A stretch of DNA of 64,000 nucleotides from positions 1-64,000 of IMG/VR virus record IMGVR_UViG_3300049460_000196, one strand, 5' to 3'. Below are positions 5,904 through 63,075 of the stretch, one piece after another (position 1 is the first letter of the stretch; each line of letters begins with the position of its first letter). A model generated the notes under the pieces. The model had not been told where the DNA came from. It ran no database searches and saw only the letters and a program-made list of their open reading frames with translations. The position numbers and the translations under genes are program-made. This DNA comes from a virus.

Positions 5904-6497
5904 TTAGGCGTTGTGATCGCGAATGGCCTTGCGGGTCATTGCGTCCAGGCCCGCATCCAGGCTAGTGATGATGCTGTTGAGGCTTTCATCTTTCAGTGGT
6001 GCCGCCAGCTCCAGGGCCGTGGTTGGGTTGCCCGGACTCATCTCCGACAAGCGTTTGGCTTGTTTGATGAACGTGTGTGCCAGTTCGACGCGTTCCGTGG
6101 CAGCTTTTTGCTCGGCAGCAGCGGCAGCTTTATCGATCTTGGCTTGCTCGTTGGCTGCTTTCTGCTTATGCGCAGCGGCGATCACCAGCGGCTCGAGGAA
6201 GTTGTCCACCAGAGCGTAGGACATGGTGATGTACACCTCATCATTATCGCCTTGGCTGTAGCATTTGTATTTGAAGCTCACCGTCTCGGTCTTGTCGTCA
6301 CCGGAGATGTCTTCCAGGAAGTAGTCTTGATTGCGCCACAGTTCGAGCGCGCCTGCTGCTTTGAAGATCGCGAATGCCTGAGTGCCCAGGCTGTAGAAGT
6401 GGTCTTGATTTTTCTGGTGTTCGCTGTAGCTGATCATTTTGTGCTCCATGTCTGTGGTCAATACAAACATGGTAAGTTCATTTGAACAAAAGATCAA
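5904..6497 (-). CDS. hypothetical protein (true start probably downstream)
   Basis: ORF with phage-like codon bias. Confidence 0.6.
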   Translation of the reverse strand: MIFCSNELTMFVLTTDMEHKMISYSEHQKNQDHFYSLGTQAFAIFKAAGALELWRNQDYFLEDISGDDKTETVSFKYKCYSQGDNDEVYITMSYALVDNFLEPLVIAAAHKQKAANEQAKIDKAAAAAEQKAATERVELAHTFIKQAKRLSEMSPGNPTTALELAAPLKDESLNSIITSLDAGLDAMTRKAIRDHNA

Positions 6498-9367: not shown

Positions 9368-10783
9368 TTAAGCTGCCAGCTTGTAGCGGTCAACCATCAC
9401 GGCTTCCAGCATCACGGACATTGGCGAGAAGTCCTTGGCACCCAGCACAGCTTTCAGGATGGCTGGCGAGAAACCAGATACCAGCGCAACGCCGCTGTCG
9501 TCATAGCGCGTTGGGGCGCTACCATGCGAGTTCAGGTTCCAGAACACGATGTTCGGTGCCTGGTAACCAGCTTCCGCGTACTTGGTGCGGATCATTTCCA
9601 TCGCTTGCACGGAACGGCCCTGGATGCAGTTGTTATCGAACTGCATATCCGACAGGATCAGGATGTTCTCTGGCATGTGCTCAGGTGCAACCTTCTGCGC
9701 CACCGCGATCTTCAGCACTTCCTCGAAAGCCGCCTGGATGTTGGTGTTGTACGCAACCTGCGAACCCATCTGATCCAGTTTCTGGAAGATGTCACCTTGC
9801 AGGTTGTACAGCTTAGGCACGTCAGTGAAGGTCATGAACGTGTCTTTGAACGCACCAGTGTTCTTTTCTGCCAGGTACAGACCCAGCGACATTGCCACAT
9901 TCATGCAGCTAACAGTACCGCTACCACCGGCAGGGCTACCCATCGAACCCGACACGTCAACCATCGGCAGGATAGACGCTTCACCGACGAAGTTTTCCAG
10001 GGCTTCCCACTGGGCAACCATCACCTTGCGAACGGCCTCGTCCATCGAACGACGTTCGTACGCCGTGAACGCACCTTTCAGCACATCGTATGGGTAAACG
10101 GCGCCGCTGTTGATCTTGGCTTCGCCAGTCGTCAGTGCTTCGGCGTACTTAGTGTAAGCGGCTTCAGCATTACGCTTGAACGCTTTCTTGTAGCGAGCAG
10201 CAGCCAGCGATGGCACGTGGCCGAAGTTGATGTTGTCCCAGTCTTTCGCGCACATCTGGGTTTCCACGACTTTCGTCAGGGTCACCAGAGTCTTGCGGTA
10301 GCGCTTAGGCGAGAAGCCCAGGTAGGCACGCAGCTCTTCAGCTACCTTGCCTTTACGTGGCATCCACTTTGCGCACAGGCCGTTACCAGCTTCCAGGCCA
10401 CCTTTGATCAGCTCAAAAGCGTGCTGGCGCAGGATTGGGTGCTTGACGGTCAGCAGGTCATCCCAACGACCGATTTCTGGGATCTTTTGCATGAGCTTCT
10501 GAGCCAGTGCGCTATCCTGGTTTTCCAGGTAACGCAGCACTTGCTTGAACAGCTCACGCTCGCCAGCACCACCGCGAACGTCACGCGCCCACTGCATGAT
10601 GCGCACAGCAACGTCGGCATCTTCCACGAAGGCCGATACAAACGCTGGGATCGGATCTTTACCGCGCATCGCGCCGATATGGAAGAACAGGTCAACACAC
10701 TTGTTCAGCGTGGACTTGTACGCCAGGGCGCCGTTGGTGGTGGTGGTTTCTTGCTCGTTGATTGCTTGTGCGAAAGTAGTCAT
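9368..10783 (-). CDS. TROVE/Ro60-related helical-repeat plus vWA protein (DUF2828-type)
   Basis: N-terminal TTNGA, RDVRGGAGER, GRWDDL, AKWMPR; vWA MIDAS DVSGSM, ILSDMQFD, VFWNL, SGFS. Confidence 0.88.
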   Translation of the reverse strand: MTTFAQAINEQETTTTNGALAYKSTLNKCVDLFFHIGAMRGKDPIPAFVSAFVEDADVAVRIMQWARDVRGGAGERELFKQVLRYLENQDSALAQKLMQKIPEIGRWDDLLTVKHPILRQHAFELIKGGLEAGNGLCAKWMPRKGKVAEELRAYLGFSPKRYRKTLVTLTKVVETQMCAKDWDNINFGHVPSLAAARYKKAFKRNAEAAYTKYAEALTTGEAKINSGAVYPYDVLKGAFTAYERRSMDEAVRKVMVAQWEALENFVGEASILPMVDVSGSMGSPAGGSGTVSCMNVAMSLGLYLAEKNTGAFKDTFMTFTDVPKLYNLQGDIFQKLDQMGSQVAYNTNIQAAFEEVLKIAVAQKVAPEHMPENILILSDMQFDNNCIQGRSVQAMEMIRTKYAEAGYQAPNIVFWNLNSHGSAPTRYDDSGVALVSGFSPAILKAVLGAKDFSPMSVMLEAVMVDRYKLAA

Positions 10784-10806: not shown

Positions 10807-10930
10807 AACTGGATCAGTTGTGCTGAATTATTTGGTAACGTTCAGTATCGTTAGGTCCCGGAGCCACTGGGAGGTTGTAAGTCCCAGTCCTCACGGTAGC
10901 GCGTGTTTTTGAATTGCTGTATCTGATCCA
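10807..10930 (-). ncRNA. ACAGCAA-module RNA in the leader of the TROVE/vWA gene (Y-RNA-like)
   Basis: TGGATCAG-A-TACAGCAA ... CTGATCCA-GTT terminal helix enclosing two hairpins; same architecture as the 39-40 kb elements. Confidence 0.7.
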
Positions 10931-18841: not shown

Positions 18842-18954
18842 TGGTCCGTCCAAAGGGATTCGAACCCCCATTGATCCGCTTACTCGACTACCGCTTAGAA
18901 GACGGTTGAGATACGGGCGGTTATACGTGCTCTATCCATCTGAGCTATGGACGG
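18842..18954 (-). tRNA. aberrant tRNA-Arg(UCU)-like RNA: D-armless core plus an extra upstream 5' half
   Basis: T-arm GGGGTTCGAATCCC, TGGACGG-A-CCA end, ACCGT-CTTCTAA-GCGGT arm; upstream CCGTCCA-TAGCTCAGATGGATAGAGCA. Confidence 0.7.
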
Positions 18955-39387: not shown

Positions 39388-39489
39388 AACAGAATCGTTG
39401 CCCACTAACCATTGGAGCAGTCAGAGCCGGCTTTCACCAAGCCCCGACAGGAGTCGAACCTGCGATATTTTATTTGCTGTAACGATTCT
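39388..39489 (-). ncRNA. circularly permuted tRNA-like RNA 1 with ACAGCAA module
   Basis: AGAATCGT-TACAGCAA..T-arm GCAGG-TTCGACT-CCTGT, loop-closed acceptor stem, D-like GCTCCAATGGTTAGTGG..ACGATTCT-GTT. Confidence 0.8.
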
Positions 39490-39495
39490 ATGAAT

Positions 39496-39623
39496 AACAG
39501 GATGGTGGTTTTTGCTGCTCTTACGAGCGATGCTGTCCTAACTTAGACTACAGCCCACAGGCCGACGGGATTCGATACCCGCACACACACCTTGAAATAG
39601 CGGTAAATTGCTGTGACCATCCT
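39496..39623 (-). ncRNA. circularly permuted tRNA-like RNA 2 (Glu-like) with ACAGCAA module
   Basis: AGGATGGT-CACAGCAA..ATTTCAA-GGTGT, T-arm GCGGG-TATCGAAT-CCCGT, CGGCC..GGCTG, D-arm GTCT-AAGTTA-GGAC, GCATC..ACCATCCT-GTT. Confidence 0.8.
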
Positions 39624-40233: not shown

Positions 40234-40375
40234 GCGGGTTGTTTTGCCTTTAGGCCAGTGCATTAGACCACTCTGCCATCCTTGGGACGAAGCCTGAGGA
40301 GTGGGATTCGAACCCACGAAGTAAGCCTTGGCGAGGCTCCTTGCCGGCTTGTGTATTGTTTGCTGTACACAACCC
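40234..40375 (-). ncRNA. circularly permuted tRNA-like RNA 3 (Ser-like) with ACAGCAA module
   Basis: GGGTTGTG-TACAGCAA..AA-GCCGG, long variable arm, GTGGG-TTCGAAT-CCCAC, closed acceptor, TGGCAGAGTGGTCTAATGCA, CTGGC-CT..ACAACCC. Confidence 0.85.
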
Positions 40376-40381
40376 AAAATT

Positions 40382-40529
40382 AACAGGATCGCGATGGATT
40401 GAACCATCTTTTAGTCGGGCGCGTCTACCGGTTTCGCCACAGACGAAAGATTTCGCTTTCGCCCGGGAGGGCTCGAACCTCCATGCCTTGCGGCACCTGA
40501 TTTCCGTTTAGTGTTGCTGCATCGATCCT
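40382..40529 (-). ncRNA. circularly permuted tRNA-like RNA 4 (Leu-like) with GCAGCAA module
   Basis: AGGATCGA-TGCAGCAA..AA-TCAGG, TGCC-GCAA-GGCA arm, GGAGG-TTCGAGC-CCTCC, closed acceptor, TGGCGAAACCGGTAGACGCG, CCCGA-CT..CGATCCT-GTT. Confidence 0.85.
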
Positions 40530-46387: not shown

Positions 46388-47575
46388 GTACCACTGAGAT
46401 TACATGGTCCTCGTTGACGCTTCGAACATTATTAGCCAGGATTGCGTCCCAACCTTCTTTCGATATCCACTAGAGCCCCTTTCGGGTAATCTAGTACGCC
46501 AACATCATCGCCGTTTTAAGTCAGGCAGTAGACTTGACACAGGGTGCTATTCTACGACTTTCCATCCGTTGACATTCGACTGCCATTAGAGCTTGCGGGC
46601 CCTACGAACTTCTTTTCATAAACCAACTAGGCCTTGCGAGCTTCGCTGAACTTGATTAACTTTCGTCTCAAGTATTAGATGATTTTCACACCCTGCCGAG
46701 GTAGACTTTGCATTTTGTATAAGTAAACGGTTTGATCGTTCGCTCTTTCTCCAATGAAAGTGCCATTTCTGGCGTGCAACTCACTGCGACGTGCTACCTC
46801 AGCTGCTCCAAAGTCTTTTGGACTCCAGAATACAACACGCCACGTATCTTTCGCCTCGCGGGCTACCGGATCGTCTTTCTCGACTAATGTCCACACCCTT
46901 GCGGATAGTCCACCAACCGATAAAACTGCATCATACCTCTTGGGTGCGACCCCTCGAAACATAACACTACCTTTCCCCGTACAAGATGGCAAGTTGGATT
47001 TGTGATGAGACTCGGCTCCCGCCATGTTCTCCCTCAACTGATGTTCCCTAACGAGCAAGCCCGCTAGGCATCTAAGCCAAGGTTCTTTCCATCACTCTTG
47101 CGTCCCAATTATCTCCAGGATAACCTGAAGTGCTTCCTTTCGGAAGCCGGGTCGGCTTGCATAACAGAACCACTTGCATGGCGCGGCTGCGTGAGCTTGA
47201 CCGCTTTCCCCGGGTTGCCCCGGCTCTTCCTTCCAATATACGGCAAGCCGTATACCGTGGAGCTATGCCCCCAAAACTTGTTTTACTCATAAATTCTACA
47301 AATACCCATTAAAGGAACGGCTGATACTAATGGAGCGACCATTATAAGGTTGCGAACCTCGCAGTGAACAAGTCACCGGCATATCAACTATGCGTTAGTA
47401 TCGTCAGGCAGCCGCACTGGCTGTTACTCCCTATTGTCCACCCGCACACGGAACAATCAACTACCGCGGTCAGGTCGCGTGCCATCAGGCAGTAGGTAAT
47501 TGACGGCTAGGATTTACACCTAGTACGTTCCATTAATGAATACTCAGAAAACACATGAGTAAAACAAATTGCTTA
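46388..47575 (-). ncRNA. large structured ncRNA, GOLLD-like
   Basis: ~1.2 kb with no credible ORF, many GNRA-capped hairpins, long-range helices 47278-90/47556-68, 3' GTAATCTCAG, next to a tRNA, own promoter. Confidence 0.65.
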
Positions 47576-50115: not shown

Positions 50116-50724
50116 TTATCCTTCAGATATTAAGCGCTTGATGGTCGCTGTGACCAATTGTGGATCGGCCTTCATTTGACGCATAACTTGCCCCATGAGC
50201 GAGCCGATTGCTTTGTCCTTACCAGACTTAAATTCCTGGACTGCCTTGGCATTCTGCGCCAAGACTGTTTTTACAATCGCATCCAGTTCACTCGTATCTG
50301 CCTCATCCAGTGCCGTAGAGGTCACCAAAACGTCTTCCAGCAAAAGTCCGATGTTGGACGTCAGCAGCACATCTTTCAGCAGCAAACGCGCCTGGTCTTT
50401 GCGAATCAGGTTTTTGTCGAGGAGCTGGGCAATTGCGAACAACGAACGCCCAGCACCATAGTGGTATTCTGGAATGTCGGTCAAGACCAAACCTGATTGA
50501 CTCAGTTGGCCTGACACGTCGTTGATCATGAACTTGTGGAAAACATCCAGATCAGAACTGAGGGTGAAACTTGCCGCATCTTTGCCGTGGAGATTAGCCA
50601 TGACAGCACGGTACATGAGTTCCTGATCTTTCATCACATTGATGTTTTGGTACAGTTTCAGCACCTCGGTATCATCAATGTGGGCAATACTGGCCACAAC
50701 AGCGGCAATTTCTAATTGTTTCAT
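50116..50724 (-). CDS. GatB C-terminal/YqeY tRNA-binding domain protein
   Basis: IVKTVLAQN..AV.EFKSGK.KAIG.LMGQVMR..KADP; start trimmed to MKQL. Confidence 0.85.
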   Translation of the reverse strand: MKQLEIAAVVASIAHIDDTEVLKLYQNINVMKDQELMYRAVMANLHGKDAASFTLSSDLDVFHKFMINDVSGQLSQSGLVLTDIPEYHYGAGRSLFAIAQLLDKNLIRKDQARLLLKDVLLTSNIGLLLEDVLVTSTALDEADTSELDAIVKTVLAQNAKAVQEFKSGKDKAIGSLMGQVMRQMKADPQLVTATIKRLISEG

Positions 50725-50737
50725 ATACGTTAAATTC

Positions 50738-50968
50738 TGGTGGACGCGACGGGACTTGAACCCGCGTATTTCCTTGTACCCGGGCATTACTCCGGGATCT
50801 AACACAACTTGGAAAATCCGCTTCCCTTGCTGTTTATCGCCACCTGTTGCCAGGCCGCTATAGGTGCGGGGTAAAACCATGCGTTATGCCAGACTTGCGA
50901 CTTGGAACCCATTTTATTGGAACCCCTGCCTATTTTTAGGAGTGCATCGCCCTCTTTGCTACGCGCCC
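50738..50968 (-). ncRNA. 231-nt tRNA-like RNA with ~160-nt structured insertion in the anticodon arm
   Basis: GGGCGCG/CGCGTCC-A-CCA (G3:U70), D-arm, T-arm GCGGG-TTCAAGT-CCCGT; insert contains ACAGCAA; own promoter TTGACT-17-TACCAT. Confidence 0.75.
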
Positions 50969-51145
50969 ATGTTCATATGGTATTGCCAGTTTACCGGGAA
51001 GTCAAGCGATCTATTACCGCCCAAGCTTTTAGCCGATCAATCTCGAGTGAAATTTCAAGATCCGTGTAACCTTCCAGTTCCATCACGGTGGCGATGTAGA
51101 AATATGGATCAGGCTGTAACGAAGCCCAGATTTTCTTGAGCCAAT

Positions 51146-51370
51146 TCATGATATCAACACTGCATTGGTGGAGATAACTTCGTTAATCAGTTCACGCTGT
51201 TTATCAGCCAAAGCCAAGGGAAACATGGGCGAATCGTATTGCTTCTGGGTTAAGTTGAAGGTTAGCTCAGCGGTCATCAACACACCAACACCCAACCCTT
51301 CCTGAAATTCTTTGGTGGCCCCGTTTACCACTACGGATAGCTTGTAGACTCGCTTGATCGTTTCGGTCAT
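51146..51370 (-). CDS. hypothetical protein
   Basis: GGAG RBS. Confidence 0.55.
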   Translation of the reverse strand: MTETIKRVYKLSVVVNGATKEFQEGLGVGVLMTAELTFNLTQKQYDSPMFPLALADKQRELINEVISTNAVLIS

Positions 51371-54476: not shown

Positions 54477-54539
54477 CTGCTACTCCGTGTTCGTTTATCT
54501 TGTTCCTATTATAGGCGTAGATGAACAAACAATCAAGTA

Positions 54540-54752
54540 TTAGTCACGTTTGTTTGCCAGTTCGTTCAACTGTTTGCTGAGGTCGGCGTCGGTTTCGGCG
54601 GTGATCACGCCCAGCTTAACCATGTTGTTCATGGTACCACGATACACTTCAAACTCGCGGTTATCGAACGACTCAACCATCACGTGCTCGCGACCAGTGT
54701 CGCTGTCGAAGGTGTCGTAGTTGTGTTTGATCTGCGCGTTGATGATATACAT
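54540..54752 (-). CDS. hypothetical protein
   Basis: AGGAG RBS and promoter. Confidence 0.6.
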   Translation of the reverse strand: MYIINAQIKHNYDTFDSDTGREHVMVESFDNREFEVYRGTMNNMVKLGVITAETDADLSKQLNELANKRD

Positions 54753-54817
54753 GGTCGCTCCTGCATTTGTGTAGAATCACATTATAGACGCAGATGAACA
54801 GAAAATCAAGTAATATT

Positions 54818-54901
54818 TGGTGGACCAGAGCGGAATTGAACCGCCACGACGTCGCGAACGTCTTTCCCAGTGCGGAGGACTTGTACTCACCTGAGTAGCC
54901 C
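54818..54901 (-). ncRNA. degenerate tRNA-like RNA
   Basis: GGCGG-TTCAATT-CCGCT, ACCA end, variable-arm hairpin; D and anticodon arms irregular. Confidence 0.5.
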
Positions 54902-54926
54902 AGCGAAGCACCAATACATGATGCTT

Positions 54927-55003
54927 TGGTGGACTATGGGGACTCGAACCCCCTCTCCCTGGCCCGTAATGATCAGCCTCGTGGGGCTTGTCCCACAATC
55001 TCC
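54927..55003 (-). ncRNA. degenerate tRNA-like RNA (UAC-like loop)
   Basis: GGGG-TTCGAGT-CCCC, TAGTCC-ACCA; non-standard D region. Confidence 0.5.
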
Positions 55004-55095
55004 GCCATTAGATGTAGCGGTGCTGAATCACGCTTCTGAAGCTACTCGCTTGAAGCCGATCATTACGAGCGACTGTTGCCAGTCACCCAGCTGGT

Positions 55096-62300: not shown

Positions 62301-62413
62301 ATTTGATATTATTGGGGGCGGGTGGAGGACTCGAACCTCCGACAACGTCCTTACAAGGGAATTGAGGGTTATGCTGTGACTATCCTGATCAGGATCGTGC
62401 CTTTCGGCTTCTA

Positions 62414-63035
62414 CAGCTAAATAAGGTCGCGAGATTGCAGTCTCCACCTTTCTAACGCTTTCAAGGAGCATCAGCATGGATATTTATCCGCCAACTTTTC
62501 TTTATATAAAACAACACGCAATTACTGGCAAACTTTACTTTGGCAAAACCGCAAAGGACCCAGAAACTTATTTGGGATCAGGCACTTATTGGCGCAAGCA
62601 TATCAAAAAACATGGAACAGAACATGTCATTACTGTGTGGTATTGTTTGTTTTATGACACGACAACAATAAGTGAATTTGCATTATCATTTTCGGCAATG
62701 CACAACATTGTTGAATCTACAGATTGGGCAAATCTTAGGCCTGAAAATGGTCTAGATGGTAACCTTCCTGGAAATGTCCCGTGGAATGTCGGACTAGAAG
62801 CACACAATAAAGGCACAACCAGTCCAAACAAAGGGCGAACTTTGTCAGTTCGTTCTCAAGAACATAAAGACAAAATATCAGCAAGCTTAACTGGTAAAAC
62901 CAAGTCTAGTAAACCTCAACCCAATCGAAAAGCACGGGTACATGTAAAACACGACACCGTAATCTGCCCTCATTGCGGAAAAACTGGCGGAAGTAATATA
63001 ATGGGTAGGTGGCATTTTTCTAATTGTCCAGCTAA
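62414..63035 (+). mobile_element. endonuclease cassette with 7-bp direct repeat CAGCTAA
   Basis: CAGCTAA at 62414-62420 and 63029-63035 flanks the leader and most of the ORF. Confidence 0.7.
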
Positions 63036-63054
63036 GACGTGCTCTACCAACTGA
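62476..63054 (+). CDS. GIY-YIG-like (Seg-type) homing endonuclease with NUMOD3-like repeats and C-terminal Zn finger
   Basis: FLYIKQH..TGKLYFGKT..Y.GSG.YW, WAN; PWN.G, EHKDKISASLTGK, CPHCGK..RWH..NC. Confidence 0.82.
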   Translation: MDIYPPTFLYIKQHAITGKLYFGKTAKDPETYLGSGTYWRKHIKKHGTEHVITVWYCLFYDTTTISEFALSFSAMHNIVESTDWANLRPENGLDGNLPGNVPWNVGLEAHNKGTTSPNKGRTLSVRSQEHKDKISASLTGKTKSSKPQPNRKARVHVKHDTVICPHCGKTGGSNIMGRWHFSNCPAKTCSTN

Positions 63055-63075
63055 GCTAACCCGCCCAAAAACTGT

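What the first reader, a model, noticed from the sequence alone, without database searches (positions are those of the whole stretch)
50738..50968. 231-nt tRNA-like RNA with Ala identity elements and a large structured insert
The acceptor stem has G1-C72, G2-C71, G3:U70, A73 and encoded CCA, the AlaRS identity set shared with tmRNA. It has a D-arm, unlike tmRNA, and ~160 nt in place of the anticodon loop. The insert has hairpins (CCCGGA-GTAA-TGCCCGGG, CCTG-GCAA-CAGG), a repeated GGGTTCCAA, an ACAGCAA after a probable helix, and a tiny frame ...CAAGTC-GCA-AGT-CTG-GCA-TAA (ASLA*) reminiscent of a tmRNA resume site and tag end. It has its own promoter and lies just upstream of a GatB/YqeY tRNA-binding domain gene. 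It could be a mini-tmRNA, an intron-containing tRNA or another module RNA.
Basis: partly seen in the sequence, partly recalled or inferred. Interest (0 to 1): 0.75.

Follow-up and report, generated by a model that had tools for sequence, protein, structure and literature searches.

The report
Phage tRNA-like RNA with big insert
A giant-phage fragment carries a real, conserved small-RNA gene that looks like a complete alanine tRNA whose anticodon loop has been replaced by a 163-base folded domain; it is not a normal tRNA, tmRNA or known intron, and what the extra domain does is still unknown.

Summary
Window 50738-50968 (minus strand) encodes a 231-nt RNA with a full tRNA core: a 7-bp acceptor stem with G3:U70, A73 and encoded CCA, a D arm with U8/A14/G18G19, and a canonical T arm. 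A 163-nt insert sits where the anticodon loop should be.

Four related metagenome contigs match only the RNA gene, and their flanks are unlike. Their changes are compensatory in the T stem and in a 12-bp helix inside the insert. The -35/-10 boxes and 17-nt spacing persist although the spacers differ. A gene for a GatB C-terminal (YqeY-type) tRNA-binding protein starts 12 nt after the CCA.

It fails tmRNA tests:
- Rfam scores 20.5 bits against a threshold of 47.
- It has a D stem and no long P2 helix or pseudoknots.
- The 4-codon "tag" is not conserved and lies in a covarying helix.

No intron model matches, and no sensible anticodon loop could be restored. It shares only the ACAGCAA heptamer with this phage's Y-RNA-like module family.

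Best reading (about 0.4): a non-decoding, probably alanine-chargeable tRNA-scaffolded RNA that pairs with the co-transcribed protein. It matches no Rfam family. The scan had read this same stretch before, in overlapping windows of the same genome, but not on other DNA.

The parts
50738..50968 (-). 231-nt tRNA-like RNA gene (RNA position i = 50969 - window position)
   Evidence: Sequence read. ARAGORN -i calls a tRNA on exactly these ends. Similarity in relatives ends at 50738 and at about 50982-50984.
51000..51005 (-). -35 box TTGACT
   Evidence: Promoter scan. Relatives X3 (TTGACA) and X4 (TTGACT) keep a -35 box 17 nt from the -10 box although their spacer letters differ (loose ends).
50977..50982 (-). 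-10 box TACCAT, ending 8 nt before G1
   Evidence: It lies inside the stretch conserved in X3 and X4.
50962..50968 (-). Acceptor stem, 5' strand GGGCGCG (RNA 1-7)
   Evidence: Pairs with RNA 221-227 and gives G3:U70.
50738..50748 (-). Acceptor stem 3' strand CGCGUCC (RNA 221-227), then A73 and CCA (228-231)
   Evidence: U70 is unchanged in X2 and X3, while pairs 5-6 change in X3. A relative's read-through peptide implies U-N-G-A-Y-C-C-A-C-C-A.
50944..50959 (-). D arm (RNA 10-25) with G18G19
   Evidence: Read from the sequence. It is kept in constrained folds. It is about 15/19 identical to the D arm of this phage's tRNA-Phe(GAA).
50938..50941 (-). Remnant of the anticodon stem, 5' strand UCCU (RNA 28-31)
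   Evidence: Pairs with AGGA at 195-198 in the lowest-energy constrained fold (-79.0 against -73.9 kcal/mol for the local-hairpin alternative). No covariation data are available.
50771..50774 (-). Remnant of the anticodon stem, 3' strand AGGA (RNA 195-198), followed by a 4-5 nt variable loop
   Evidence: A relative has one extra A here.
50899..50930 (-). Insert arm 1 (RNA 39-70): G.U-rich hairpin made by the two GGGUUCCAA copies
   Evidence: Folds. RNA 16-74 shows no substitution in X2 or X10.
50884..50898 (-). Mini frame GCA AGU CUG GCA UAA (RNA 71-85), preceded by AGUC
   Evidence: It reads ASLA* in the window and in X2. X4 carries the same two substitutions as X2, and both are synonymous. 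X10 reads ASHT*. X3 carries C72>U, probably giving VSLA*. RNA 75-86 form the 5' strand of the covarying helix.
50797..50894 (-). Insert arm 2 (RNA 75-172): a 98-nt rod closed by the 12-bp helix 75-86/161-172
   Evidence: Compensatory changes 77:170 (C-G to U-A) and 82:165 (A-U to U-G or U-A). Half-changes at 78:169, 83:164 and 86:161 keep the pairs.
50839..50858 (-). Tip hairpin of the rod (RNA 111-130) with a GNRA loop, GCAA
   Evidence: The loop changes to GUAA in X2, X3 and X10, so it stays GNRA.
50827..50833 (-). ACAGCAA (RNA 136-142) in an asymmetric internal loop, 5-7 nt after the tip hairpin
   Evidence: It is unchanged in the relatives. The linker before it varies in length and sequence: GAUAA, GAUUAA, GUUAA, GUUUAA.
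50779..50796 (-). Insert arm 3 (RNA 173-190): hairpin with a GUAA loop
   Evidence: It is unchanged in X2 and X3. Its 3' strand differs in the relative behind P0005.
50749..50765 (-). T arm (RNA 204-220)
   Evidence: Canonical UUCAAGU loop. Pair 206:218 changes from G-C to C-G in X2 and X3.
50116..50724 (-). Co-transcribed gene: a 202-aa protein equal to the C-terminal helical and YqeY-type tail part of GatB, without the catalytic domain
   Evidence: Pfam GatB_Yqey, 6e-19. It aligns to residues about 317-480 of GatB models. PDB relatives are 3h0l_B, 3al0_B, 2df4_B and 2hz7_A. Homologues of 72-88% identity all start at the same MK(Q/I)LE.

Best explanation
This is a stand-alone phage non-coding RNA gene built on a complete tRNA(Ala)-type body. 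A 163-nt, three-armed folded domain has replaced the anticodon loop.

Shown:
- The tRNA core is present.
- The unit from promoter to CCA is conserved.
- Compensatory changes occur in the T stem and in the long helix of the insert.
- It is transcriptionally coupled to a GatB-tail gene.

Inferred:
- The transcript starts at or 1-2 nt before G1, from a host-type sigma-70 promoter.
- It is trimmed like a tRNA, and host AlaRS charges it with alanine through G3:U70/A73.
- It cannot decode, because a bulky four-way junction sits where the anticodon should enter the 30S subunit.
- The tRNA body therefore serves as a processing and stability scaffold and as a docking handle for tRNA-binding proteins. 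The first candidate is the co-transcribed GatB C-terminal (D-loop/elbow-binding) protein.
- The insert is the working part and binds a second, still unknown partner.

This would be a tRNA-mimic adaptor RNP. Its logic resembles that of Y RNAs (a tRNA-like module plus a partner-binding module), within this phage's large set of tRNA-related genes.
For: - Canonical tRNA core nucleotides, with G3:U70, A73 and CCA.
- In four related contigs from soil, mollusc-associated and freshwater samples, similarity starts after the -10 box and stops exactly at the CCA. The flanks are unlike.
- Three base pairs show double compensatory changes (77:170, 82:165 in two forms, 206:218). Three pairs show pair-keeping single changes. 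Only one pair, in a weak 3-bp helix, is broken.
- The GNRA loop stays GNRA.
- RNA 16-74 is invariant in X2 and X10, while the helices vary.
- The -35 and -10 boxes and the 17-nt spacing are kept across unrelated spacer sequences.
- The top three acceptor pairs and U/Y70 are kept while pairs 4-7 vary in X3 and in the relative behind P0005. This is the pattern expected if alanine identity is selected.
- The GatB-tail ORF starts 12 nt after the CCA, with no promoter of its own found between them. The same adjacency appears in the P0005 relative, where the gap is 9 nt. It also appears in X3, whose alignment runs 52 nt past the CCA into the spacer and the first codons of the gene.
- The protein corresponds to the tRNA-binding tail of GatB and to the YqeY appendage of D. 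radiodurans GlnRS.
- Chen et al. 2014 (PMC4201824) proposed that a tRNA fold, CCA addition and possibly aminoacylation protect Y RNAs from exonucleases.
- A 156-nt contig from an RNA library lies wholly inside the gene and spans the 5' junction of the insert. This is only a weak hint of expression.
Against: - No experiment or strand-specific read shows that the RNA is made, processed or charged.
- Binding to the GatB-tail protein is inferred only from adjacency and from the known role of that domain.
- The closing stem 28-31/195-198 has no covariation support. Alternative pairings exist: a local hairpin 27-43, or UUCC at 47-50 pairing with 196-199.
- The partner and role of the insert are unknown.
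- C4:G69 replaces the G4:C69 of E. coli tRNA(Ala), which may lower the efficiency of charging (my own knowledge).
- All comparative data come from close relatives (90-95% identity), rebuilt from a difference table. For X3 and X4 that table lists no difference beyond window 50897, although the totals show that some remain.
Confidence: 0.4

Rival explanations
1. It is a non-permuted member of this phage's stem+ACAGCAA (Y-RNA-like) small-RNA family. The ACAGCAA loop next to a hairpin would be the handle for the phage's DUF2828/DUF7788 (Ro60/TROVE-like) protein, and the tRNA(Ala) body would be the cargo.
For: - ACAGCAA lies at RNA 136-142, unpaired, 3' of a hairpin, and is unchanged in all relatives.
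- At least 10 other minus-strand small RNAs in this genome carry GGAUxxxx-ACAGCAA...xxxxAUCC-(U/A)GUUA around tRNA pieces.
- A tRNA-Thr gene carries hairpin-ACAGCAU in its anticodon region.
- A DUF2828+DUF7788 protein is encoded at 9368-10783.
- The heptamer is expected only about 0.04 times by chance in 231 nt at this strand's background rate (my estimate).
Against: - The family signature GGAU/AUCC stem directly abutting ACAGCAA is absent. Here a length-variable 5-7 nt linker separates the hairpin from the heptamer.
- The following sequence is G-rich (GGGAAGCGG). In the family members it is an A/C/U-rich linker.
- No (U/A)GUUA tail is present.
- Pfam TROVE itself does not hit this genome.
- The known bacterial Ro60 motif GNCGAA(N)G (PMC4201824) is not present.
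Confidence: 0.2
2. It is a minimal tmRNA-like molecule. Charged with alanine, it would enter stalled ribosomes and add a very short tag from the GCA AGU CUG GCA UAA frame. Alternatively it would act as a decoy that blocks host trans-translation, like a tmRNA reduced to its tRNA-like domain (TLD).
For: - It has G3:U70, A73 and CCA, as tmRNA does.
- AGUC|GCA matches positions -4 to +3 of the E. coli resume site (my own knowledge), and a stop codon follows after 4 codons. The stop is kept as UGA in X10.
- The substitutions at 77 and 82 are synonymous.
- There is a weak local Rfam tmRNA hit, E=2e-6, and ARAGORN calls a tmRNA at a relaxed threshold.
- Huge phages and mycobacteriophages do carry tmRNAs. 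[quoted passage not shown]
Against: - Rfam scores 20.5 bits against a gathering score of 47, and the match covers only the 3' tRNA-like part.
- ARAGORN makes no call at default settings.
- At a relaxed threshold ARAGORN picks a different tag, and that tag becomes AW* in three relatives.
- A true D stem and an anticodon-stem remnant occupy the place where SmpB binds in tmRNA (my own knowledge).
- There is no long P2 helix and no pseudoknot.
- The tag peptide differs among close relatives: ASLA, ASHT, and probably VSLA.
- Nucleotides 75-86 of the frame are one strand of a 12-bp helix, and the 'synonymous' changes are exactly the compensated ones.
- G68-C70 of 'AGUC' pair in the best fold.
- No SmpB gene was found in the 113 kb held.
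Confidence: 0.13
3. It is chiefly a cis element of the GatB-tail mRNA. The tRNA-shaped leader would be cut off by tRNA-processing enzymes to create the mRNA 5' end, or the tRNA-binding protein would bind it to regulate its own synthesis, as in tRNA-mimic operators such as the one in thrS mRNA.
For: - One promoter, and a 12-nt gap between the CCA and the ATG with no evident Shine-Dalgarno sequence.
- The adjacency is kept in two relatives.
- The protein is a tRNA binder.
Against: - The gap between the CCA and the ATG is 12 nt here and 9 nt behind P0005.
- In X2 the sequence after the CCA is unlike. The first ATG there is 27 nt on, and its gene is unknown.
- A leader would not need G3:U70, A73, CCA, a full D/T core and a 163-nt covarying domain.
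- The RNA is more conserved than the gene next to it: 90-95% nucleotide identity against 85-88% protein identity.
Confidence: 0.1
4. It is a precursor tRNA whose 140-163 nt insert is an intron. The intron would be removed either by self-splicing or by phage RNA-repair enzymes (the phage is reported to encode Tpt1/KptA), giving a working tRNA.
For: - ARAGORN -i models it as tRNA(AAA) with a 138-nt intron at 37/38.
- Other tRNA genes of this phage are interrupted.
- The insert replaces the anticodon loop.
Against: - No group I, group II or other intron or ribozyme family matches at E<=10.
- No flanking letters give a 7-nt loop with U33 and an Ala (NGC) anticodon. The candidate loops are AAAAAUA, UAAAAAU and GGGUACA.
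- Bacteria have no endonuclease for a bulge-helix-bulge site at 37/38 (my own knowledge).
- The RNA-library contig runs unspliced across the 5' junction.
- The sequence of RNA 32-74 is invariant, which is unusual for an intron periphery.
Confidence: 0.07

Closest known systems
tmRNA (SsrA), including the TLD-only tmRNA of mycobacteriophage DS6A (PMC4131195)
   Same: An alanine-identity acceptor stem (G3:U70, A73, CCA) and a T arm joined to a large internal non-tRNA domain. It is phage-borne. A small tRNA-binding protein gene lies next to it, as smpB often lies next to ssrA. A short frame follows an AGUC|GCA site.
   Different: It has a real D stem and an anticodon-stem remnant. It lacks the long P2 helix and the pseudoknots. 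The frame is 4 codons long, is not conserved as a peptide, and lies inside a covarying helix. It scores below the Rfam and ARAGORN thresholds. The neighbouring protein is a helical GatB tail, not SmpB.
YrlA-type bacterial and phage Y RNAs with Ro60/Rsr (Rfam RF02553; PMC4201824)
   Same: A small RNA that combines a tRNA-mimicking module (D and T arms, acceptor-like stem) with a second, protein-binding module. It occurs in a genome that has a Ro60-like (DUF2828) protein and many tRNA-derived small RNAs. It shares the ACAGCAA heptamer with those RNAs.
   Different: In YrlA the RNA ends form the Ro-binding stem and the acceptor-like stem is closed. Here the ends are true tRNA ends with CCA, and the extra module sits in the anticodon position. 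There is no RF02553 match and no GNCGAA(N)G motif. The GGAU/AUCC-ACAGCAA architecture of the phage family is absent.
Engineered 'tRNA scaffold' RNAs (Ponchon and Dardel 2007; cited from my own knowledge, not read here)
   Same: An RNA of interest replaces the anticodon loop of a tRNA. The tRNA body provides correct processing and protection from nucleases. The topology is the same as here.
   Different: Those RNAs are man-made. This one is natural, conserved and alanine-type, and a specific tRNA-binding protein is co-expressed with it.
Stable RNAs of unknown function in phage tRNA clusters (T4 species 1 and 2 RNAs; cited from my own knowledge)
   Same: Small stable RNAs encoded among phage tRNA genes, matured by tRNA-processing enzymes, with no known function.
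   Different: There is no sequence relation. The T4 RNAs are not full tRNA bodies with a large insert and are not known to carry alanine identity.

Membership tests
tmRNA (Rfam RF00023 and permuted forms) | Score at or above the family's gathering threshold over the whole model | tested here: not met
   20.5 bits against 47, and only the 3' tRNA-like part aligns. No tmRNA family hit at gathering threshold.
tmRNA | Alanine-type acceptor end: G3:U70, A73, CCA, T arm | tested here: met
   U70 is kept in X2 and X3.
tmRNA | tRNA-like domain without a D stem, joined to the rest by a long P2 helix | tested here: not met
   A 3-bp D stem with canonical loop nucleotides is present. Only a 4-bp closing stem leads into a four-way junction.
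tmRNA | Pseudoknot(s), especially PK1 before the resume codon | tested here: inconclusive
   Nested folds explain the region as a plain hairpin at RNA 39-70. No pseudoknot-capable predictor was available.
tmRNA | Conserved tag reading frame ending in a stop | tested here: not met
   The mini frame reads ASLA*, ASHT* or probably VSLA* in close relatives, and its changes are explained by helix covariation. ARAGORN's alternative tag is cut to AW* in three relatives.
Canonical decoding tRNA (Rfam RF00005) | Cloverleaf with a 7-nt anticodon loop (U33, anticodon, R37) | tested here: not met
   No RF00005 hit. ARAGORN makes no call without introns. The loop is replaced by 163 nt. The alternative local loop AAAAAUA has A33.
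tRNA(Ala) identity set for AlaRS | G3:U70 with A73 and G1-C72/G2-C71 | tested here: met
   Present in the sequence. Charging itself cannot be tested with these tools. C4:G69 differs from E. coli tRNA(Ala).
Group I / group II introns or self-cleaving ribozymes in a tRNA gene | Match to a catalytic-core model | tested here: not met
   No such family at E<=10 in 50600-51100.
Spliced tRNA precursor (any mechanism) | Removing the insert restores a functional anticodon arm | tested here: not met
   No junction gives U33 plus an Ala or other sensible anticodon.
This phage's stem+ACAGCAA module RNAs (uncatalogued; earlier scan notes) | GGAUxxxx helix strand directly followed by (R)CAGCAA, with partner strand xxxxAUCC followed by (U/A)GUUA | tested here: not met
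   At least 10 copies in the genome have this layout. In this RNA only the heptamer is present, 5-7 variable nt after an unrelated hairpin.
YrlA Y RNA (Rfam RF02553) | Match to the family model; GNCGAA(N)G Ro60 motif | tested here: not met
   No RF02553 hit at E<=10. The motif described in PMC4201824 is absent from the sequence.
GatB_Yqey domain (Pfam PF02637), for the downstream protein | Domain match above the curated cut-off | tested here: met
   68.8 bits against 27, residues 59-198. It aligns to the C-terminal third of GatB only. PDB GatB and GlnRS-YqeY relatives found.

The most novel reading that the evidence does not exclude
The RNA and the co-transcribed GatB-tail protein form a phage RNP that is charged with alanine and acts on the host translation machinery without SmpB. 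It would either be a second, independent invention of a tmRNA-like ribosome-rescue or tagging device, or an alanyl-RNA that delivers or withholds alanine and tRNA-binding factors during infection.
Probability: 0.08. Interest if true: 0.9.

Novelty: new variant of a known kind. Interest (0 to 1): 0.6.

Why it matters
tmRNA is the textbook case of a chargeable tRNA-like end fused to a large functional domain in one RNA. Y RNAs show tRNA mimicry without charging. This RNA has the full tRNA core, including the D arm, with alanine identity and a covarying 163-nt domain in the anticodon position. It is expressed together with a free-standing GatB tail. That combination matches no Rfam family and appeared in none of the papers I searched.

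If it is charged and stable, it would be a natural counterpart of the engineered tRNA scaffold. It would also be a new handle on what giant phages do with their tRNA-related gene sets. It gives free-standing YqeY/GatB-tail proteins, whose role is unknown, a candidate RNA partner that can be tested directly.

Tried and rejected
- Close DNA relatives in the phage collection: none.
- GatB-tail protein relatives in viral contigs and metagenome contigs, as a single protein and as an alignment: none confirmed.
- Exact conserved 22-24-mers of the RNA in viral, metagenome and genome contigs: no hit.
The contigs behind the nine GatB-tail homologues therefore could not be read.
- A spurious antisense ORF across the RNA gene, used as a protein probe: no hit.
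- Pattern with the same acceptor stem: one hit, L002. My model aligns it as a 76-nt tRNA-like element with no insert homology. Rejected as a homologue.
- Model R1 on the phage's own 113 kb, on 36 viral records sharing the phrog_1735 protein, and on Ralstonia phage RsoM2USA (which has a 34%-identical GatB-tail gene): only ordinary tRNAs matched. None of the 36 records has a GatB_Yqey gene.
- Generic pattern for an Ala-type tRNA body of 210-240 nt. The first try had a wrong spacing. The corrected scan gave 35 loci, most of them two adjacent tRNAs. One was a two-piece tmRNA (L054). One was a different tRNA with a D-loop insert (L083). None was homologous.
- ARAGORN's permuted tmRNA at 54538-55017: no Rfam support.
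- SmpB in the genome: none.
- Pfam TROVE: none.
- Ideas considered and dropped for lack of support: CsrA-type GGA sponge (GGA count is at chance), an 11-nt tetraloop receptor, an anti-Shine-Dalgarno mimic, and UUCCAAG as anticodon-loop or CCA mimics.
- Laid runs: the parts of the 601-nt stretch outside the RNA gene had no cover in X2, X3, X4 or X10. I draw nothing from that beyond the loose ends reported.
Full report
WHAT IS THERE.
The window is the first 64 kb of a 113-kb IMG/VR virus record estimated to be 27% complete. The record is a fragment of a very large phage. It has about 55 tRNA genes on the minus strand and a GOLLD RNA at 46391-46843. On the minus strand, 50738-50968 reads as a 231-nt RNA. 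I number it so that RNA position i equals 50969 minus the window position.

The RNA has a 7-bp acceptor stem, GGGCGCG/CGCGUCC, with G3:U70, followed by A73 and CCA. U8, A9, G10, A14, G15 and G18G19 sit at their canonical tRNA numbers, around a D stem of G10-C25, C11-G24 and A12-U23. The T arm is canonical (GCGGG, UUCAAGU, CCCGU), and C203 sits at position 48. UCCU at 28-31 can pair with AGGA at 195-198. That leaves 163 nt where the 7-nt anticodon loop should be.

ARAGORN and Rfam do not call it at default settings. The tRNA part of my covariance model R1 scores 20-34 bits on ordinary tRNAs.

IS IT A GENE?
The best evidence comes from laying contigs of four public runs on 50560-51160 at 80% likeness.

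- A soil run (X2) matches 50738-50970.
- A mollusc-associated run (X3) matches 50686-50984.
- A second soil run (X4) matches 50858-50982.
- A freshwater metatranscriptome (X10) matches 50808-50953.
- Identity is 90-95%.

Beyond these limits the contigs run on into unlike sequence. X2 diverges exactly at the base after the CCA. X3 and X4 diverge just upstream of the -10 box. The conserved unit is therefore 'from the -10 box to the CCA'.

Upstream, the window has TTGACT-17 nt-TACCAT. The loose ends of X3 and X4 read, on the RNA strand, TTGACA and TTGACT. Each lies exactly 17 nt from TACCAT, although the spacer letters are unrelated. A promoter kept in position through diverged sequence is good evidence of function. 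The -10 box ends 8 nt before G1, so transcription should start at or 1-2 nt before the mature 5' end.

STRUCTURE AND COVARIATION.
I rebuilt the variants from the difference table and counted pairs.

- T stem, pair 206:218: G-C becomes C-G in X2 and X3.
- A 12-bp helix, 75-86 with 161-172, is supported by three kinds of change:
  - 77:170 changes from C-G to U-A.
  - 82:165 changes from A-U to U-G in X2 and to U-A in X3.
  - Single changes at 78:169, 83:164 and 86:161 keep the pairs.
- The tip loop GCAA becomes GUAA, so it is still GNRA.
- Only one predicted pair is broken, in a weak 3-bp helix.
- RNA 16-74 has no change at all in X2 or X10, although 3-4 changes would be expected in each.
- The acceptor 3' strand changes at positions 222-223 in X3.

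A read-through ORF (P0005) gives further evidence. Its 20 N-terminal residues translate the 3' end of the RNA gene in another relative. They imply U-N-G-A-Y-C-C-A-C-C-A. Pairs 4-7 therefore drift, while G1-C72, G2-C71 and U/Y70 stay. This fits selection for alanine identity.

With these helices fixed, the lowest-energy fold (-79.0 kcal/mol) is a cloverleaf whose 4-bp anticodon-stem remnant opens into a four-way junction. Its three other arms are:

- Arm 1 (39-70): the two GGGUUCCAA 'repeats' are simply its two G.U-rich strands.
- Arm 2 (75-172): a 98-nt rod with internal loops and the GNRA tip. ACAGCAA (136-142) sits in an asymmetric internal loop after a linker that varies in length.
- Arm 3 (173-190): capped by a GUAA loop.

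Alternative pairings of 27-31 cost 4.6-10 kcal/mol but cannot be excluded, because those letters do not vary in the relatives I could see. The alternatives are a local hairpin 27-43 (which would move the insert to the variable-arm position), ARAGORN's pairing with 176-180, and UUCC at 47-50 pairing with 196-199.

Caveat: table 3 stops at 50897. Eight differences of X3 and three of X4, which lie in RNA 1-71 or the promoter region, are not listed.

NEIGHBOUR.
Twelve nt after the CCA starts a 202-aa ORF. Residues 59-198 are a GatB_Yqey domain (6e-19). NCBIfam aligns the protein to residues 317-480 of GatB only. The nearest solved relatives are GatB chains, including the Thermotoga transamidosome entry 3al0, and the YqeY appendage of D. 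radiodurans GlnRS.

From established knowledge, this part of GatB holds the tRNA by its D-loop/elbow region. The catalytic cradle domain is missing here. Nine homologues of 72-88% identity exist in metagenomes, and all start at the same MK(Q/I)LE.

The RNA-protein adjacency is seen again in the P0005 relative, where the CCA is followed 9 nt later by the ATG. It is also seen in X3. The X3 contig has the same length, 1956 nt, as the contig recorded for P0007. That they are the same contig is my inference.

Neither the RNA nor a GatB_Yqey gene is found in 36 viral records that share the phrog_1735 protein. Ralstonia phage RsoM2USA has a 34%-identical GatB-tail gene in a tRNA region but no such RNA. 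The family is therefore narrow.

WHAT IT IS NOT.
tmRNA:
- The Rfam model gives 20.5 bits against a threshold of 47, and only for the 3' tRNA-like part.
- There is a D stem, and no long P2 helix or pseudoknot.
- ARAGORN's relaxed-threshold tag is cut to AW* in three relatives.
- Its 'synonymous' changes are exactly the ones compensated on the opposite strand of the 12-bp helix.
- No SmpB gene lies in the 113 kb.

Intron:
- No intron or ribozyme family matches at E<=10.
- No junction restores U33 with a sensible anticodon.
- The one RNA-library contig runs unspliced across the 5' junction.

The phage's stem+ACAGCAA family was a lead from earlier scan notes, and I checked it myself. At least 10 minus-strand copies share GGAUxxxx-ACAGCAA...xxxxAUCC-(U/A)GUUA. 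This RNA has only the heptamer, after an unrelated hairpin and a variable linker, and it is followed by G-rich sequence. Chance expectation for the heptamer is about 0.04, so a shared partner remains possible but is not shown.

MOST LIKELY MECHANISM.
Shown:
- A promoter-driven, structurally constrained RNA with a complete alanine-type tRNA core.
- A large covarying domain in the anticodon position.
- Co-transcription with a tRNA-elbow-binding protein.

Inferred:
- It is processed like a tRNA and charged by host AlaRS, which needs only the acceptor helix.
- It cannot decode, because the four-way junction sits where the anticodon stem must enter the 30S subunit.
- The tRNA body gives processing, stability and a docking surface. 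Chen et al. proposed this for Y RNAs (PMC4201824), and engineered tRNA scaffolds exploit the same idea.
- The invariant arm 1 and the rod carry the actual function, through an unknown partner.

I put about 0.4 on this 'tRNA-scaffolded adaptor RNP with the GatB-tail protein'. The rivals are:
- 0.2 on its being a true member of the Ro60-like/ACAGCAA system.
- 0.13 on a tmRNA-like or anti-tmRNA role. Phage DS6A's TLD-only tmRNA is a precedent (PMC4131195).
- 0.1 on a leader or processing element for the protein gene.
- 0.07 on a spliced precursor.

NOVELTY.
No Rfam family matches, and I found no description in the papers I searched. It is a new variant among tRNA-like non-coding RNAs. It is clearly real and well delimited, but its function is open.

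The same stretch had been read before by first-stage readers in overlapping windows of this same genome, but not on other DNA.

Noticed in passing
L083:4511-4732 (-), IMGVR_UViG_3300035698_017726: A 222-nt tRNA-like gene inside a large phage tRNA array. Its acceptor stem is GGGACCG/CGGUUCC (G3:U70, A73, CCA). It has a structured insert of about 145 nt in the D loop and an anticodon loop AUUUGGU (UUG). ARAGORN and Rfam do not call it. It is a second, unrelated case of an alanine-type tRNA body carrying a big insert. The same record has a sub-threshold YrlA hit at 6269-6375.
   Followed up: partly
L054:7699-8108 (+), IMGVR_UViG_3300017917_001849: A phage contig with a two-piece (permuted, beta-type) tmRNA: Rfam 111 bits (beta_tmRNA) and 116 bits (tmRNA_permuted).
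   Followed up: no
L002:2241-2316 (-), IMGVR_UViG_3300010352_000538: A 76-nt tRNA-like element with the same GGGCGCG/CGCGUCC-ACCA acceptor stem (G3:U70). It has no clear D arm and ARAGORN does not call it.
   Followed up: partly
window 54538-55017 (-): ARAGORN calls a permuted tmRNA here (tag ASLKCIVVP*). Rfam finds nothing at E<=1, so it is probably a false call.
   Followed up: partly
window 18842-18954 (-): A tRNA body with an insert of about 34 nt. Rfam tRNA scores 37.8 bits over 110 nt, and ARAGORN -i calls Ser(CGA) with a 34-nt intron.
   Followed up: no
window 62313-63065 (-): A tRNA-Thr(UGU) gene interrupted after nt 31. The insert ends with AUCCUGAUCAGGAUAGUC-ACAGCAU, a 13-nt linker, then the intact loop CUUGUAA. 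This is the non-permuted form of the ACAGCAA module noted by earlier readers.
   Followed up: partly
G000 (whole 113-kb record), e.g. window 10914-10920, 39474-39480, 39608-39614, 40360-40366, 40514-40520 (-): At least 10 minus-strand copies of GGAUxxxx-(R)CAGCAA ... xxxxAUCC-(U/A)GUUA, several of them enclosing tRNA pieces. RCAGCAA occurs 45 times in the window against 25.7 expected.
   Followed up: partly
window 9368-10783 (-): A 471-aa protein with DUF2828 and DUF7788 domains. It is the 'Ro60/TROVE-like' candidate of the earlier notes. Pfam TROVE itself does not match anywhere in the record.
   Followed up: partly
G000:C1:72397-72472 (-): This phage's tRNA-Phe(GAA) has a D arm (UAGCAAAGAUGGUCUAUGC) and a variable loop close to those of the 231-nt RNA. 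This hints that the body of the RNA derives from a phage tRNA of that type, with a changed acceptor stem.
   Followed up: no
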